Shown: positions 34,400-42,945 of the stretch, in pieces
How positions within the stretch are numbered: the first letter of the stretch is position 1
How the letters are laid out: each line of letters begins with the position of its first letter
NCBI RefSeq assembly: GCF_036321535.1
Contig: NC_087452.1
Location: forward strand, 33,480,001-33,544,000
Origin: Camelus dromedarius
Taxonomy: Eukaryota
Reading direction: 5' to 3'
Length of the DNA stretch: 64,000 nt
The notes under the pieces: generated by a model
The model's input: the letters and a program-made list of their open reading frames with translations, nothing else
Told to the model about the DNA's origin: nothing
Database searches by the model: none
Made by a program: the position numbers and the translations under genes

Positions 34400-37300
34400 A
34401 TGAATGTCCTGGAGACTTCCAAGTTGCTGGATGAAGAGCTCTACTCTCGGCAACTGTGAGGCCTGAGGTGGGGAGGAGAGCGGGGTGGACTTCTGACTTC
34501 TGGTCTCCAATTACCTGCCCTCTTACCTCTACCTACAGGTATGTGCTGGGCTTGCCGGCCATGCAGAGGATTCAGGGAGCCAAGGTCCTGCTGTCAGGTC
34601 TTCAGGGCCTGGGGGCTGAGATAGCCAAAAACCTGGTCCTGATGGGTGTGGGTATCCTCACTCTTCATGATCCTCACCCTACCTGCTGGTCTGACCTGGC
34701 TGCCCAGGTGAGGGTCCTTGGGAGACTGTGGGTTTCCAGGCCAGGTTGGGGGTTCAAGGGCTCAAGAGAAAATTCCTTGCTTAAGCCAGACTGGGTCTGT
34801 CTTTAGTTTTTCCTCTCAGAACAGGACTTGGGAAGGAGCAGGGCTGAGGCATCTCAAGAACTTCTGGCTAAGCTCAATGGAGCTGTTCAGGTGTGCATCC
34901 ACACAGGTGACATCACTGAGGACCTGCTGCTGGACTTCCAGGTACCCTCCCAGCCCTACTCTCCAGGCTAGCCCTGTAGCCACCTCCAGGCTGTAGCAGT
35001 AGGGTGGGCCCAAAGTGGTTCTGGCCCTGCTGATCTTGAGGTCCGCCCAGGTGGTGGTGCTGACTGCCTCGAAGCTGGAGGAGCAGTTGAAGGTGGGCAC
35101 CTTCTGCCACAAACACGGAGTCTGCTTTCTAGTTGCGGACACTCGAGGCCTCGTGGGGTGAGTGAGACAGCTTGCCTCGCCTGCCACATCCATACAGCAA
35201 CTGGTCCCAGTGCTGTCCCCAGCTCCAGGCTTGCTCCAGAGCCCCTCCACCCAATCCCAGGCCTGTCCCAGCATCCCCTCTCAATTCTGGTGCCCAGTCC
35301 CACTCGTCTGCCTCCTCTACCCTGCCTGCAGACTTGCTCCAGTAAATCCTTCCGACTCCAGCTTCCAAGCCTCTCCCAGCATTCTTTTCCTAATTCTTTT
35401 CCCAGTTCCTCTGGGCTTGCCCTAGTGTCCCCCACCCTTCATCATAACCGTGGTGGTTAACCACTGAGCCATCTCAGTGACCCCTACTACCCCACCACAG
35501 GCAGTTATTCTGTGACTTTGGTGAGGACTTCACTGTCGAGGACCCTACAGAGGCAGAACCCCTGAGAGCTACCATCCAGCACATCTCCCAGGTGGGTGCT
35601 AAGGTCTGGGCGCTCACCTACTGACTAAGGAGGGGCTGCTGGAGCCTGTGGAAGGCAGATACAGGTAGCCCTGAGCAAGCCACCTCTTATCCAGGGATCC
35701 CCTGGCATTCTCACCCTGAGAGAAGAGGCTGATGCCCACCACTTCCACAATGGGGATTTGGTGACTTTCTCAGGCATTGAGGGCATGGTGGAACTCAATG
35801 GCTGTGCTCCTCGGCCTCTCCACATGCGGGGTGAGTCAACCCCACTCCAGGCCCCCGTTGTGGGTGGACACAGCCTGGTCCATGGGGAGAGGTTCTCCTT
35901 CCACCTTCCTCAGGGTGGAACAATGTCAAAGACATAGATGTAAGACAGGATGGGGTGTGGGGAACTCCTGGAGTTCAGGGGTCACACTGACTAGGCTGGA
36001 TCTCCTCCAGAGGATGGGACCTTGGAGATTGGGAACACAGCAACTTTCTCTCGTTACTTGCGTGGTGGGGCTGTCACTGAGGTCAAGAGACCCAGGACTG
36101 TGAAACACGTGAGTTTAAGTGCATCTGAGGTGAGGGGTTTGGGCGCCTTGTGGGGGCCCACGGGGTTCTGGACCTGACCCTGAGCTGAGTGCCCCCTTCA
36201 GGAGCCCCTGGATGCAGCCCTGCTCCAGCCCCGTGTGGTGGCCCAGAGTCCCCAGGAAGTGCACCGTGCCCACTGCCTGCATCGGGCCTTCCGTGCACTG
36301 CACACATTCCAGCAGCTCCATGGCCGCCCTCCTCGGCGGTGGGATCCTGTGAGTGGCCCCAATGCCCCTTTCCCAGCCTGTGTCTTAATGGGGCCTCACC
36401 TTCCAGGAGGCAATGACTATCTCACAGATCCAAGTTTGAATCCAGAGGCAGTTTCCCACTCATCTAAAGGAGATGATAAACACTATCTCCAGACCAGAGG
36501 CTGGGTCAGTGAAAAGGCCAAGCACAAAGCCTGGGGACCCATGCTACTCCTAACCTCTCATATCTGGTCTGGAAGCTGCCCCCAGGTTGGAGAAGCCTCC
36601 AGGGTTGTTGTCTGGCACTGGGTATCCTCTGGTGGGGCTTCCCAGTCTGGCAGCTGGAATTCCATCCCACCTAGGCTTCTGCTTCCTCTTCTGTGGAACA
36701 GGGTGGATGGCTGCCTGAAGGATTGGAGCTTCAGGGGGATCCTATACCCATGGAGTTCTACCCCATAGGTTGATGCAGAGATGGTGGTGGGACTCGCCCA
36801 GGCCCTGGAACCACTGAAGGGGACAGAGGGAGAGTCATCGGAAGAGCAGCTGGATGAGGCTCTAGTGCGGACAGTCGCCCTGAGCAGTGCTGGTAGCTTG
36901 AGCCCCATTGCAACCATGCTGGGTGCGGTGGCTGCCCAGGAAGTGCTGAAGGTGGGCACAGGAAGAGGCAGGGCGGGGCTGGGATGGGTGCTCAACACCA
37001 GACGGCAGCCCTGGGGGATTCACCAACCTGGGTGCAGCCCTCAGCCAAGATCTGAGGGCATTAGGAGGTGGAAGGAGTCCCCAGCCTAAAGTGCTGACTT
37101 CTAGGCGGTCTCCAAGAAGTTCATGCCCTTGGACCAGTGGCTGTACTTTGATGCCCTCGATTGCCTTCCAGAAGATGAGGAGCCCTTTCTCAATCCTGAA
37201 GACTATGCACCGGTGAGAACCTGGGGTAGGGGTGCAAGCCTTATCCAAACTCAGGACAATGGGGAAACTGGAAGACTGGTCCCAAAATCCTGGCCCGGAA

Positions 37301-40300
37301 AACTTGGTATAAGAGGGAGATGCAGCAGAAGCCAGTGGCCATCACTGACCGCTATCTGTGTCCCCTAGAGAGACTGCCGCTATGACGGGCAAATTGCCGT
37401 GTTTGGGGCTGGTTTTCAGAAGAAACTGAGCCACCAGCACTACCTCCTGGTGAGCCTTGTGGTGAGGTGGGGAGTGAGCAGGGTGGGGCCAGGCCAGGCC
37501 CTGGCTAAGGTTGTTCCTGTTGGCAGGTGGGTGCTGGTGCTATTGGCTGTGAGCTGCTCAAAGGCTTTGCCCTAGTGGGCCTGGGGGCTGGGGGCAGTGG
37601 GGGCGTGACTGTTGCCGACATGGATCACGTGGAGCGCTCCAACCTCAGCCGGCAGTTCCTCTTCAGGCCCCAGGACATTGGTGTGAGTGCCCACCCCTCC
37701 CCACATCCGTGTCCTGAAATGTCCTCCTGTAATACATACCCCACACCCAAGTCTTCACACTTTCTTCTCAGAGGCCAAAGGCAGAGGTGGCTGCTGAGGC
37801 TGCTCATCACCTGAACTCAAACTTGAAGGTGACCCCGCTCACCTACCCACTGGATCCCACTACAGAGCACATCTATGGGGACAACTTCTTCTCCAATGTG
37901 GATGGCGTGGCTGCCGCCCTGGACAGTTTCCAGGCTCGTGAGTGCTCGACCTGGGAACTCAACCCCTTGTCTGAGACTGTGCCCACCCCACTTCTGACCC
38001 TCTGCTCCTTTGCCAGGACACTATGTGGCTGCTCGCTGCACTCACTATCTGAAGCCACTACTGGAAGCGGGCACAAATGGCACCCGGGGCAGTGCTTGTG
38101 TGTTCATGCCGGATGTGACTGATGTCTACAGAGGCCCTGCCTCGGATGCAGATTCTGAGGATGCCTCCTACCCTGTCTGCACCGTGCGGTACTTCCCCAG
38201 CACAGCCAAGCACACCTTGCAGGTGGGAAGGACCCCCAGAGACTCCTACCCAACCTGGCTCCATCCTCAGCTGCAGAACTGTTCCCTAACTGGCACCTCA
38301 TGGTTCCTCCCTTCCCCTTAGTGGGCCCGGGATGAGTTTGAGGGACTTTTCCATCTGTCTGCTGAGACCATCAAACGCTACCAACAGGAAGGCCACCCAC
38401 AAGGGTGAGTAAGAATTCAGAGCCCCTGTCAACCAAGAGGCTTAGCCTCAGACTTGCTCCTCTGTCCGCAGGGCACTCATTTCTCTGGCTGACATGGATG
38501 GGCCACAGGTACTGACCCTGCTGCAGGTGGTGCTGGGTGTCCTGAGAGAGCGTCCACAGACGTGGCGAGACTGCGTGCTGTGGGCCCTTGGCCACTGGCA
38601 ACTGTGCTTCCATTATGGCATCATACAGCTGCTGAGGCTCTTCCCACCTGATAAAGTGGGTACTAGGAGTCAGGAGGATGAGTGCTCAGGGTGGCCAGAC
38701 AGAGTCCAGCAGCCTCCATTTCCCTAGGTGCTTGAGGATGGAACACCTTTCTGGTCAAGTCCCAGACAGTGTCCCCAGCCCTTGGAGTTTGACGCCAGCC
38801 AAGTGAGTGGAGTCTTTTGGGAGCCCTGAGAGGGGAATGTGGCCCCTAGAATGGAGGTGAGCACCTCTGATTTTGCAGGAGAGGGAGATGCTGAGAGGGA
38901 GAGAGCCCTATCTGTGCACATGGGGGTGTTCACATGTGAGGCAGATGCAGGTGTTCAAACAGATCCACAAATGGGCAGTGACCCCCACCCCACGCGCCCA
39001 TCCAAGCTCACTCAAACCCTTGCATCTGCCCCTGCTCTTGGTCTCACTGCAGGACATGCACCTCCTCTATGTGTTGGCAGCTGCCAACCTGTACGCCCAG
39101 ATGCATGGGCTGCCTGGCTCTCGGGACCAGACTGAGCTCAGAGGACTGCTGAAGTTGCTGCCACTTCCTGACCTCCAGGACTTGGCCCCCATCTTTGCTA
39201 GTGACCTGGAGCTGGCTTGGGCTTCTGCTGAGTTGGGTGAGATCCCTGGCCCTGGCCCTAGCCCCCATCCTGCCACTCAAAGGCCTGACCCTGTCCTCAG
39301 CCTGTGCTCCAGAAAGAAGATGGGGTCAGGGGAAGGCAGCCAACTTACTACCTTTCAGGCCCTCTGACCTTGCTTCTGTCTAGCCTTGGCCCCTCAGAAG
39401 GCCCTCTCTTCTGCCTACCCCACCCCACCTTGTTCCCTTGGCCGACTCACCAAATAAACAAACAAACAAACGAAAATAATAAAAAACACAAACCACTGGG
39501 CCCTGGGGAGCAACTAGCTGTGGCTGCTAGATAAGGACAGAACTACATACATGTATGTGCACGCACACACATGCACACACAGGTGTGGGCTGGGGCTCCT
39601 AGGGAGATTGCAGCATCAATCAAGGGGTCTCACTGTAAATGGGAAGTGCTAGGCTTGGCAGGGACCAGGGATAGGCACTGGGCTCCTGGAAGAGTGCAGG
39701 ACTTGGGGTCTAAGGATTGTCCCAACACACCTTTCCCCCGACAGGCCCTGAGCACTTGAAGAAACTGCATGAAGCCCTGGAAATCTGGAGCACAGGCCCT
39801 CCCCTGGAACCCTTGATGTTTGAGAAGGTGGGAGCCCATCTGGGGCTGAACAGACAGGCTAGAGAGGTTGTTGGGGAAGGTTAAGAACTAAATCTCTTGG
39901 TCTGAGCCCCTTGGTCTGAGTTGTCCTCCCAGCAGGACCCCAGGAGCTCCTCACTTCCCTTGAGCCTCAGCCTCCTTATCTGTTAAGTGGGTAGATGTGA
40001 GCATCTAGCCCACAGTATTGTGTGAAGACCTGTGCAGTGGCACAGAGTTGGCCAAGGTGAGGGGCACTGGGGCAATGTTAACACTACCGTGCCTTGGCCC
40101 TCACAGGACAATGACAACAACTTCCATGTGGATTTTGTGACAGCAGCAGCTTGCCTGCGAGCTCAGAACTATGGGATCCCACCGGCCAACCGCACTAAGG
40201 TAACTTGCCCCTTGGGACTCAGGCCTGGAGGTGGGGTCAAACCCTAGCCTTACACCTCAGGCCCAGACCAAATCTTCTGTCTATGGCAGAGCAAGCGAAT

Positions 40301-41771
40301 TGTGGGCCGGATTATCCCAGCTGTTGCCACCACTACAGCGGCCGTGGCTGGCCTGGTGGGCCTGGAGCTATACAAGGTGGTGGGCGGGCCACGGCCCCTC
40401 AGTGCCTTTCGCCACAACTATCTGCACCTGGCTGAAAACTACTTTAGCCGCTGGGTACCTTTTGCCCCAGCCATCCAAAAGGTGAGCCCTTGACAACACT
40501 TCCCCGACACCAGGCCTGAGTTTTCCCTGCAATCACCCTACTCGGGCTTCAGGCTGTCACCAGGACCCAGACTCTGGGGGAGTCCTCAAGACTCCCTCCA
40601 GCCCCCTCCCTGCTGCAAAGCCAGGCTGGGACCTGTCAGACACAGGAAGCAGCCGTCAGCCACCCCCACCCTCCAACCCTCCGGGTCTGGGGGAGCTGCA
40701 GCTTTAACTCATTAGTGGAGCCAGACATCCCCCACATCCCCCTCCTTCCCACGAGTGCCCCTGAGGGGGAAGGGGGACTAGGGCCCTAGCCCCAAACAGA
40801 GCTGAACATCAACATTGCCTGCATGGCATGGCATCCATCCTCCTCTGGCCTGGACCTTCCCCTCAAGCTGAGTTGAAAGACACTGAGCTCTCCACCATGG
40901 GGCCCTGTGTGGGGTGTGCAGCCCTGTGGGGATGTGCACGCTCATGTCACATGTGAGTGCACTGGGGTCTGGGCATCCCTGGCCCTGTGGTGTGTGGGCA
41001 TGGAGGGAGCATGCTTGCACATCTGTGTGCCAGGTGGGACTACAGGGCTTTTTCACTATGTGGGCTTGCATGGGTGTGCGTGTGAGTACACATGTGGGTG
41101 TTCCTGGGCTTGTGTGCATGTGTGTTCCTTCAAGTGCAGGGCTATGAGTGCCCCTGGCTGTGTGCCCAGGCTCTGCAATAGTTGGCATTTCCTTAGGGCA
41201 CAAGGAAGGGTGTAGAGAGAATTTCCTCACCAGGAGAGAGGCGAGAGGTCATGGGCCAGTGCTGCTCTTGCTGAGCAGCTCTGGGGTCCTTCAGGGCACA
41301 GCACACAGAGCCCCTTTGTGAGGGGCCCAGCCTCTAGCTAGAACACAAGCTGCCTTTGTCCATGGAGGAGGGGGAGAGGGAGGGGAAGGATCCTCCATCT
41401 CACCTCTGGCCTCGTCTCAGCTTGACCCCACTGTTTTCTGGGGAGCTGGCAGAGCCCCCCTGTCTTGGCCCCTGGCTGTCTGCCACCTTCTGCCCTCAGC
41501 TCTGGGTCCCAGAACCTCAAGACTCTTGAAATAAGGAAGGAAAAAGGGGACAGAAAGAGGAGGCCTCTGTGGGCTGTGTCACTGCTTGGGTCACTGTGCC
41601 CCTTGCCTGTGTGCCCATGAGTAGTCCAAGGCCCTGGTAGTAAAGGATTAGAGGACAGGATGTACCGCCTACCCCCCTACCCCAGCTTCCAGCCTTGCAT
41701 TTGAGGAACAAGCAGCTTTATCAGAGACTGCAGTGGCCCTGTTCCCGCTTCCTCAGGAAGCATGTCCCTCC

Positions 41772-41826
<55 letters not shown>

Positions 41827-42945
41827 CCTGTGTGATGGATCGCCTGTTTCCCTGTGCGGGGGCCCCATATCCCCATTTCCTGTGCTGGCCTCAGCATGGG
41901 TGGGGAGGGTGGTGAGACTCTGGGCCTAGATCCCACCTTCCACCCCCACCCCCTGGCTTCTGCTTCCTGCCTCTAGTCCAGCTCCTCCCCTAGGAAGGGG
42001 CCATAAGCTGCTAGGGACAGGGGGAGGGGGAGGGGTGTGTGTAAGAAGCTTCTCACTCCTCGCCACTACCACCCCCCAGTTCCAACACCTGGAGTGGACC
42101 TGTTGGAAACGCCTAGAAGTGCCTGCTGGGGAGCCGGAGAGGACCCTGGAGTCGTTGCTGGCCCATCTCCAGGTGTGCCCCATTCCTGCTCTGTCCCCAG
42201 GCCTGGCCCAGCCTGGCCCAGCTGGCACCTGACCTCTCTCTGTCTAGGAACTGCTGGGGGTGAGGGTGACAATGCTGCTGCGTGGCCCGGCCGTGCTCTA
42301 CTCTGCAGGATGGTCGCTTGAAAAGCAGGCCTGGCACCTGCCCCTCAGGTGAGCCCACACCTGGCTCTAGCCAGGTCTCATTCTGTCCCTGGAAGTTGGA
42401 GGTGGGAGAAAAGTAGCCTTCCCTCTTTCCAACCTCATCTGGGCCCCTCACACCTTCCTGAAGTTTTCTTTTGCCAAATGGAGCCAGCAAATGGTCTGGG
42501 GGTGGGCGGAGGGCCAAGAGCCTGAGGAGGGGCCTCTAGGAGCTGCCTGCTCAGCCAGCCCCACCAGCTCCTCCACACCCTGCTCAGCTCCCCTTTCCCA
42601 GCCCACTCCCAGGGGACTCGCAGCTTCCTGCCTCCTGCCCGCCCCGCCAGCCGCTCCTAAAATAGTTTCAGATGTTTCCTGTCTTGGGCCATTCTTGCTC
42701 CTGGCTTGGGCTCCTTATGGCCCACCAGCACCTTGTAGTCCATGCCAGGACACTCTCTGCCTGCCACTGCCCACCTCCCCAATCTCCCCCAATCCTCTCC
42801 CCACCATGCCACCAGGGTGACGGAAGTAATGCGGCAGGTGACCGGCCAGGCACCTGAGCCTGGACAGCGGGTGCTGGTACTGGAGCTCAGCTGTGAGGGT
42901 GATGAGGAGGACACTACCTTCCCACCCGTGCACTATAAGCTGTGA
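34400..42945 (+). CDS. UBA7: Ubiquitin-like modifier-activating enzyme 7 (ISG15 E1, UBE1L), 1018 aa, 24 exons
   Basis: Exons: 34400-34455, 34539-34707, 34807-34941, 35051-35157, 35501-35591, 35695-35830, 36011-36108, 36202-36348, 36769-36951, 37105-37212, 37369-37449, 37527-37682, 37772-37937, 38017-38222, 38322-38404, 38472-38655, 38728-38802, 39053-39236, 39745-39827, 40107-40199, 40290-40481, 42080-42172, 42248-42348, 42816-42945. Total 3057 nt. Motifs: [33 protein letters not shown], catalytic Cys599 in YPVCT (38178-38180), C-terminal UFD. Confidence 0.96.
41773..41822. repeat. (AC)25 microsatellite in UBA7 intron 21
   Basis: Perfect dinucleotide run. Confidence 0.97.

What the first reader, a model, noticed from the sequence alone, without database searches (positions are those of the whole stretch)
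38381..38410. UBA7 exon-15 donor apparently lost (GT>GG) and rescued by an in-frame donor 18 nt downstream, inserting EGHPQG into the catalytic domain
The recalled human protein reads ...HQQ-AHTSL..., which puts the phase-2 donor after CAA CA (38386). Here the next bases are GGAAGG, one change from GTAAGG. A strong donor AGG|GTGAGT at 38405 keeps phase 2 and extends the exon from 65 to 83 nt, giving [14 protein letters not shown]. The protein is 1018 aa, exactly 6 more than the 1012 aa I recall for human. The insert lies 37 residues after catalytic Cys599 in the second catalytic-cysteine half-domain, which faces the E2 (UBE2L6) during transthiolation. It may be a lineage-specific change in the ISG15 antiviral pathway; if camel, this is the MERS-CoV reservoir host. 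It could also be a polymorphism or a sequencing error.
Basis: partly seen in the sequence, partly recalled or inferred. Interest (0 to 1): 0.72.

Follow-up and report, generated by a model that had tools for sequence, protein, structure and literature searches.

The report
Camelid-wide splice shift lengthens UBA7
In camels and alpaca the gene for the ISG15-activating enzyme UBA7 lacks a usable splice signal where other mammals end exon 15 and carries a strong one 18 bases further on, which likely adds six amino acids at a predicted flexible turn that probably tolerates them; this is an ordinary kind of gene-structure change.

Summary
With an 83-nt exon 15 (38322-38404) the window encodes a 1018-aa protein identical to RefSeq dromedary UBA7 X1. 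The six-residue insert (636-641) is in 4 of 4 camelid species (alpaca EGHPQE) and 0 of 35 other mammal rows, so it is neither an error nor a polymorphism. Deer-like read-through ORFs show that the 18 nt are old intron 15 and that the outgroup donor reads G-Y-A-A-R where the camel has GGAAG. Splicing at 38404 rests on annotation and donor score. I saw no junction read: one contig left intron 15 unspliced and two raw runs had no reads. The functional claim is weak. A good model (pLDDT 90) puts the insert in a low-confidence turn after a 28-residue helix. It holds none of the E2 contacts named in the papers read, and E1 enzymes vary in length there (UBA1 is longer than human UBA7). Verdict: a real donor shift on the camelid stem, already in gene models, probably tolerated. 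I found no paper describing it.

The parts
34400..42945 (+). UBA7 coding span, 24 exons, 1018 aa with the 83-nt exon 15
   Evidence: gene model; identical to P0099 = RefSeq dromedary UBA7 isoform X1
38178..38180 (+). codon of catalytic Cys599 (exon 14)
   Evidence: Cys599 named as catalytic in PMC10409785
38322..38386 (+). ancestral 65-nt part of exon 15
   Evidence: outgroup proteins join residue 635 directly to the exon-16 sequence
38387..38392 (+). dead ancestral donor, GGAAGG (G at +2, position 38388)
   Evidence: score -3.0; outgroup reads G-Y-A-A-R in 5 of 9 spanning deer-like ORFs
38387..38404 (+). 18 nt of former intron 15, now exonic by annotation; yields residues 636-641 (EGHPQG; alpaca EGHPQE)
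   Evidence: homology to the outgroup intron start, 5 of 12 ungapped identities in read-through translation, shuffle p 0.0002
38402..38412 (+). new donor AGG|GTGAGTAA
   Evidence: score 10.6, 7 of 11 matches to the U1 complement; implied by all 18 camelid protein models checked that hold the region
38406..38414 (+). in-frame TGA (38406-38408), met if the intron is retained, and a second GT four bases on (TGA|GTAAGA) whose use would include that stop
   Evidence: translation; score 1.6 and 7 of 11 U1 matches; use not tested
38405..38471 (+). intron 15, 67 nt, shortest of the gene's 23 introns (85 nt from the old donor; 91 nt in the deer-like outgroup)
38472..38655 (+). exon 16

Best explanation
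Camelid UBA7 has GG instead of GT at the exon-15 donor position of other mammals and a strong in-frame donor 18 nt downstream, which is likely the one spliced and would add six residues at a predicted flexible turn of the catalytic-cysteine domain that most likely leaves the enzyme working normally. Shown: the sequence; that the 18 nt are homologous to the start of intron 15 in an outgroup; that the insert is shared by four camelid species and absent from the other mammals compared. Inferred: the change happened once on the camelid stem. A latent or newly strengthened GT 18 nt inside the intron (the last in-frame site before a TGA) took over U1 recognition, so the old donor could change at +2 without a frameshift; the order of the two events is not resolved. 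The exonised codons were then kept because the helix-turn-helix at 635-650 varies in length among E1 enzymes. It is splice-site turnover with a tolerated insertion, not a new mechanism.
For: The window protein equals RefSeq dromedary X1 with 0 differences; Bactrian differs at 3 positions, wild camel at 4 and alpaca at 22, all with the insert. 18 of 18 camelid models that hold the region have it (19 checked). It is in 0 of 35 non-camelid rows of A1 and is the only camelid-specific indel there. Of the 97 hits, 92 could be measured: the 5 long ones are camelid and 87 are normal or shorter. 9 of 15 listed deer-like ORFs read through intron 15 in register with the camel; the junction codons are S-K in 5 (+1 G, +2 pyrimidine, then AAR) and G-K in 4 (+2 open), against R-K in camel. 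Three outgroup ORFs end exactly at residue 635, as a GT-A/GT-G donor read in frame would force (P0142, P0143, P0159). Model with pLDDT 90.1: helix 608-635, turn 636-638, helix 639-646, local pLDDT 69 and 54; TM 0.85-0.93 to UBA7 and UBA1 structures. Segment 614-669 is 50 residues in 28 of 35 mammals, shorter in 7, 56 in camelids, and 41-141 (mode 53-54) in 93 of 143 E1 rows. Human UBA1 has a 3-residue gap against camel here, human UBA7 a 6-residue gap. The camelid stem branch (0.11) is not long next to pig (0.15) or ruminants (0.18) (quick tree). Donor shifts are routine between mammals (TOGA2 preprint passages).
Against: No spliced junction across intron 15 was seen. The only contig covering it (run X10, depth about 7) has intron 14 spliced and intron 15 unspliced; X6 did not cover it; X21 and X22 gave 0 reads. 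The gene models are predictions and could favour the canonical GT by rule. Outgroup DNA was not obtained (searches found nothing), so the ancestral T rests on translations, and the three ORF ends could be contig ends at the splice branch point. Tolerance is inferred from length variation and a model without E2; no distance could be measured. A bovine E2 contact (Q645 = camel Q653) lies only 12 residues after the insert.
Confidence: 0.72

Rival explanations
1. The shift is real and the six residues tune the enzyme: they reposition the short helix 639-646 and the start of helix 651-666, whose Q653 would touch UBE2L6, and so change the rate or species specificity of ISG15 transfer in camelids.
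For: Fixed in four species. Bovine Q645, which hydrogen-bonds UBE2L6 R81, aligns to camel Q653. No other mammal compared has a longer segment (0 of 35). Two camelid-specific changes to Lys flank the preceding helix (E>K609, N>K631). UBA7 SCCH loop lengths vary between species and affect E1-E2 complex formation (bioRxiv 2024.11.07.622398, abstract and section 7).
Against: None of the named contacts (human R602, H691; bovine R600, Q645, R688, K694, S769, D774) falls in the insert. One UBE2L6-SCCH interface mutation had minimal effect on charging (PMC10693564). Specificity is ascribed mainly to the UFD. 7 of 35 mammals have deletions of 1-4 residues in the same stretch. Alpaca already differs at the sixth residue.
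Confidence: 0.12
2. The main consequence is on splicing. The shift leaves a 67-nt intron with an immediate in-frame stop and a competing +4 donor, so a large share of camelid UBA7 transcripts would be unproductive and ISGylation capacity lower.
For: Shortest intron of the gene. Unspliced in the one contig that covers it while intron 14 is spliced. A Logan ORF of Bactrian/wild-camel type starts at M649 on a 2584-nt contig, which fits a break just upstream (P0006; ambiguous). The +4 site has 7 of 11 U1 matches.
Against: UBA7's short introns are retained generally: intron 13 in both X6 and X10 at a depth similar to the spliced form, intron 16 or 17 in outgroup ORFs (P0141, P0173, P0083). One contig at depth 7 is not a measurement. 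The donor itself is strong, and the ORF is intact and conserved in four species.
Confidence: 0.11
3. Transcripts still splice at 38386 through a non-canonical GG donor, and the insert exists only in gene models.
For: No junction read seen for either donor; annotation pipelines prefer GT.
Against: The GG site scores -3.0 with a strong GT site 18 nt away. None of 18 camelid models lacks the insert, and the 1012-aa dromedary isoform X2 lacks a different six residues near position 75-80.
Confidence: 0.04
4. Sequencing error or private polymorphism at 38388.
For: None found.
Against: The Glu codon that begins at 38388 is in the models of four species. The X10 contig covers the place with no other letter.
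Confidence: 0.01

Closest known systems
Evolutionary splice-donor shifts (exon extension into an intron), as handled by CESAR/TOGA2; e.g. the 24-bp donor shift in GPALPP1 exon 4 and the 165-bp shift in CFAP46 exon 30 between human and mouse (bioRxiv 10.64898/2026.06.30.735536, passages)
   Same: Old donor dinucleotide mutated, frame-preserving canonical GT used further into the intron, stop-free extension, intact protein.
   Different: A different gene and lineage, in an antiviral enzyme. The preprint's passages do not mention camels (0 occurrences); its supplements were not seen.
Mammalian UBA7/UBE1L, the E1 for ISG15 (PDB 8SE9, 8OIF human; 9JTC bovine)
   Same: About 80% identity, one-to-one alignment over 1-1018, catalytic Cys599 and R602 kept.
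   Different: Six extra residues after 635; Leu at the position of human H691 (a variable column).
UBA1 SCCH helix-turn-helix after the catalytic-cysteine helix (PDB 6DC6, 9MC4)
   Same: UBA1 has residues opposite the camelid insert, and the model shows a turn followed by a short helix there.
   Different: Unrelated sequence. The camelid residues come from intron, so this is not a return to an ancestral sequence, and the camel segment is still a few residues longer.

Membership tests
Splice-donor shift with intron exonisation | Ancestral donor position lacks a canonical dinucleotide in this lineage | tested here: met
   GG at 38387-38388; the Glu codon there in four species
Splice-donor shift with intron exonisation | Outgroups have a canonical donor at that position | tested here: met
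   By translation only: G-Y-A-A-R in 5 of 9 spanning deer-like ORFs, +2 open in the other 4; three ORFs ending at residue 635 favour T but may be contig ends. Outgroup DNA not obtained.
Splice-donor shift with intron exonisation | Added exon sequence is homologous to outgroup intron, not a new insertion | tested here: met
   5 of 12 ungapped identities after the junction, shuffle p 0.0002; register continues to the acceptor, 85 vs 91 nt
Splice-donor shift with intron exonisation | New donor is canonical, in frame and stop-free | tested here: met
Splice-donor shift with intron exonisation | Transcripts use the new donor | tested here: inconclusive
   No junction for either donor in 4 runs; one contig unspliced; annotation implies use
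UBA7 (ISG15 E1) orthologue | Full-length one-to-one similarity to UBA7 above UBA1/UBA6 | tested here: met
   1862 bits to human UBA7 vs 966 to UBA1 and about 625 to UBA6
UBA7 (ISG15 E1) orthologue | Catalytic Cys599 and intact reading frame | tested here: met
UBA7 (ISG15 E1) orthologue | Activates ISG15 and transfers it to UBE2L6 | not testable with these tools
   needs a charging assay; the ISG15 gene could not be located in the held genome
Lineage-specific adaptive change at an E1-E2 interface | Changed residues contact E2 or ISG15 | tested here: inconclusive
   No named contact in 636-641; nearest is Q653; no coordinates available to measure distances
Lineage-specific adaptive change at an E1-E2 interface | Accelerated or positively selected evolution on the camelid branch | tested here: inconclusive
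   Protein branch length ordinary (quick tree); no dN/dS run

The most novel reading that the evidence does not exclude
A single splice-donor switch on the camelid stem changed ISGylation in camels, llamas and alpacas, either by re-tuning UBA7-to-UBE2L6 transfer through six intron-derived residues next to an E2-touching helix, or by creating a 67-nt, stop-bearing intron that is often retained and so caps UBA7 output. This would be a family-wide change in an antiviral pathway of hosts that tolerate MERS-CoV.
Probability: 0.15. Interest if true: 0.6.

Novelty: new member of a known kind. Interest (0 to 1): 0.27.

Why it matters
As it most likely stands, it is a clean, traceable example of splice-site turnover and a practical warning: camelid UBA7 numbering shifts by six after residue 635, and human-based exon projection would wrongly call the gene broken. 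It also shows that the UBA7 635-650 turn accepts six extra residues in a conserved, intact gene. It would matter more only if charging or splicing assays show an effect, because ISG15 is strongly induced in MERS-CoV-infected alpacas (PMC8195365 passages) and cross-species ISGylation experiments depend on E1-E2 compatibility.

Tried and rejected
1) Raw RNA reads X21 and X22: 0 reads laid, so no test; X6 did not cover exon 15. 2) Outgroup DNA in metagenome contigs: 593 pattern hits, none confirmed; a DNA pattern found 0. 3) First fold with 39 close mammals: pLDDT 43.9, discarded; the model used came from 74 rows picked by hand from the roughly 330 stored proteins. 4) The 1012-aa dromedary isoform X2 as a short exon-15 form: rejected, its deletion is near residue 75-80. 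5) Status of ISG15 in this genome: a ubiquitin-family scan (53 matches, stretches around 30 places cut out; none recognised as ISG15), four motif patterns, two published alpaca primers (the one 2-mismatch hit of the junction-spanning primer was not examined) and two neighbouring-gene families all failed to find it. The neighbours were not found either, so this is no evidence of loss. I recall a report of a non-functional ISG15 in Old World camels; searches did not find it, and dromedary proISG15 was expressed and cleaved in PMC6927636 and its mRNA is induced, so it stays an unverified recollection. 6) No complex prediction was run: no camel UBE2L6 sequence was in hand. 7) Earlier scan findings: none.

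Full report
1. Observation. The window reads ...TACCAACA|GGAAGGCCACCCACAAGG|GTGAGTAAG... at 38379-38413, with the next acceptor ending at 38471. I built the gene by coordinates: 24 coding exons, all 23 introns GT-AG if exon 15 is 38322-38404 (83 nt, phase 2). This gives 1018 aa without a stop, Cys599 and EGHPQG at 636-641; with the donor after 38386 it gives 1012 aa. Human UBA7 (PDB 8SE9, 1012 aa) aligns over the whole length with one six-residue gap at this place.

2. Species, and whether it is an error. The 1018-aa protein has 0 differences from P0099, the dromedary RefSeq isoform X1 (XP_031326200.1). The Bactrian, wild camel and alpaca X1 proteins differ at 3, 4 and 22 positions and all carry the insert, alpaca as EGHPQE. 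Of 19 camelid models checked, 18 hold the region and 18 of 18 have the insert. The Glu codon begins at 38388, so the G there is shared by four species; a contig from another camelid run also covers the base with no other letter. Error and private polymorphism are excluded. The feature is already part of public gene models.

3. Distribution. In an alignment of 39 mammalian UBA7 rows picked by hand to cover lineages (4 camelid, 35 other, from pig, hippo, whales and ruminants to afrotherians and a xenarthran), 636-641 is a gap in 35 of 35 others and is the only camelid-specific indel of the protein. Among all 97 hits, 92 could be measured: the 5 long ones are camelid, 78 have the usual length and 9 are shorter; 5 could not be located, and many rows are isoforms of one species. 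[quoted passage not shown]

4. Was an old donor lost, and are the 18 nt old intron? No outgroup DNA could be fetched, but unnamed read-through ORFs served instead. Of 15 listed members (18 in all) of a cluster whose exon residues match deer UBA7, 9 read through exon 15 in a shifted frame and on through intron 15 into exon 16. The camel translated in the same frame is in register: [17 protein letters not shown] against S/G-K-T-P-D-K-G-V-W/C-E-S-R-V-P, with 5 of 12 identities after the first residue (p 0.0002 in 100,000 shuffles), and an intron of 85 nt against 91. The extension is therefore exonised intron. The junction codon is Ser in 5 of 9; after an exon ending in A this must be AGY, so the outgroup donor is G-Y-A-A-R where the camel has GGAAG. 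In the other 4 it is Gly, which leaves +2 open. Three further outgroup ORFs (P0142; and P0143 and P0159, 2 of 5 members of a horseshoe-bat-like cluster) stop exactly at residue 635, as GT followed by A or G would force, but a contig could also end there at the splice branch. Together they point to an ancestral GTAAG-type donor changed to GGAAG. At the new site the deer-like codons (GGN GTN TG) need T at +4 where the camel has A, so the two differ there; which state is older is not known.

5. Which donor is used? A matrix from the gene's other 22 donors scores 38404 at 10.6 (range 3.0-12.4), the GG site at -3.0 and a second GT four bases on at 1.6; the only other in-frame GT sites upstream score -4.1 and -3.4. 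Beyond 38405 an in-frame TGA (38406-38408) closes the frame, so 38404 is the last possible rescue site. Direct proof is missing: of 4 runs laid, two raw runs gave 0 reads, one did not cover exon 15, and one contig has intron 14 spliced but runs unspliced through intron 15. The intron is now 67 nt, the shortest of 23. Retention of short UBA7 introns is general (intron 13 in both contig runs; introns 16-17 in outgroup ORFs), so this one contig does not show a defect, but it keeps rival 2 open.

6. Structure. A fold from 39 close mammals failed (pLDDT 43.9). With 74 rows including distant E1s the model reached pLDDT 90.1 and pTM 0.90 and matches UBA1 and UBA7 structures at TM 0.85-0.93. The helix after the catalytic cysteine spans 608-635 and ends exactly at the old exon end; 636-638 form a turn, 639-646 a short helix and 651-666 the next helix; confidence at 631-650 is 69 and 54, among the lowest in the chain. 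The stretch varies in length: 7 of 35 mammals have deletions of 1-4 residues in it, human UBA1 has residues opposite the insert and only a 3-residue gap nearby, and among 93 of 143 E1 rows that could be measured the segment 614-669 runs from 41 to 141 residues with a mode of 53-54, against 50 for most mammalian UBA7 and 56 for camelids. SCCH-E2 contacts named in the papers are human R602 and H691 (PMC10409785, passages) and bovine R600, Q645, R688, K694, S769 and D774 (bioRxiv 2024.11.07.622398, passages and section 7). None lies in the insert; bovine Q645 aligns to camel Q653, 12 residues after it. An SCCH-facing UBE2L6 mutation had minimal effect on charging (PMC10693564, passages). I had no coordinates, so no distance was measured. 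The camelid stem branch is ordinary (0.11; pig 0.15, ruminant stem 0.18; quick tree only, the careful search did not finish).

7. Mechanism. Most likely (0.72): splice-site turnover. Shown: the dead site, the strong in-frame site, the intron origin of the extension and its camelid-wide presence. Inferred: use of the new site, a single origin, and tolerance. Rivals: tuning of E2 transfer (0.12), loss of output through retention or the +4 site (0.11), a non-canonical GG splice (0.04), error (0.01).

8. What is known. Donor shifts are a routine kind of change: the TOGA2 preprint corrected 452 coding exon boundaries in one human-mouse run and shows donor shifts of 24 to 1377 bp (passages). Small lineage-specific indels are common in camels too: 128 genes in Old World camels (PMC12127551, passages and section 11). 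In its six supplementary files UBA7 appears only in the one-to-one orthologue list; a camelid-wide change lies outside that paper's design. I found no paper describing this insert: UBA7 with camel gave 28 papers, 20 listed, none on it by title and abstract start, three checked by passage; searches and a 2026 camelid immunity review (0 mentions of UBA7 or ISG15) added nothing. Subscription journals and bioRxiv supplements were not searchable. PMC13097003 (passages) says nothing on exon 15. Whether dromedary ISG15 is intact could not be checked in the held genome.

9. Verdict. A real, camelid-wide, already annotated donor shift adding six intron-derived residues to a variable turn of UBA7: a new member of a known kind, interest 0.27. 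The most novel reading left open is an effect on camelid ISGylation (probability 0.15, interest 0.6 if true).

Noticed in passing
window 37938-38016 (intron 13): Both contig runs hold intron 13 retained at a depth similar to the spliced form (14.3 vs 17 in X6; 5.3 vs 3.9 in X10), and both lack 2 nt at 37978 relative to the window.
   Followed up: no
window 34807-34824 (start of exon 3): RefSeq dromedary isoform X2 (P0110, 1012 aa) lacks six residues near 75-80, which fits an alternative acceptor 18 nt into exon 3.
   Followed up: partly
window from about 42800 onwards: Several GenBank dromedary models (P0100, P0106, P0111; 1688-1714 aa) run from UBA7 into about 700 further residues and cluster with cadherin-related family member 4 models; read-through or an annotation merge.
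   Followed up: no
UBA7 residues 609, 631 and 697 (window about 38208, 38370, 38637): Camelids have Lys at 609 and 631, where 32 of 35 other mammals have Glu and Asn, and the dromedary protein has Leu at the position of the human E2-contact His691, a variable column.
   Followed up: partly
window 38403-38404 equivalent in alpaca: Alpaca has Glu at 641, which implies A at the -1 position of the new donor (a weaker site), yet its models keep the same boundary.
   Followed up: no
window 40482-42079 (intron 21): By far the longest intron of the gene (1598 nt), with a long CA repeat near 41772-41822.
   Followed up: no
G000, whole genome: ISG15 and the families of two expected neighbours (agrin NtA, Noc2) were not found by any search. 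The region may be missing, withheld or missed.
   Followed up: partly
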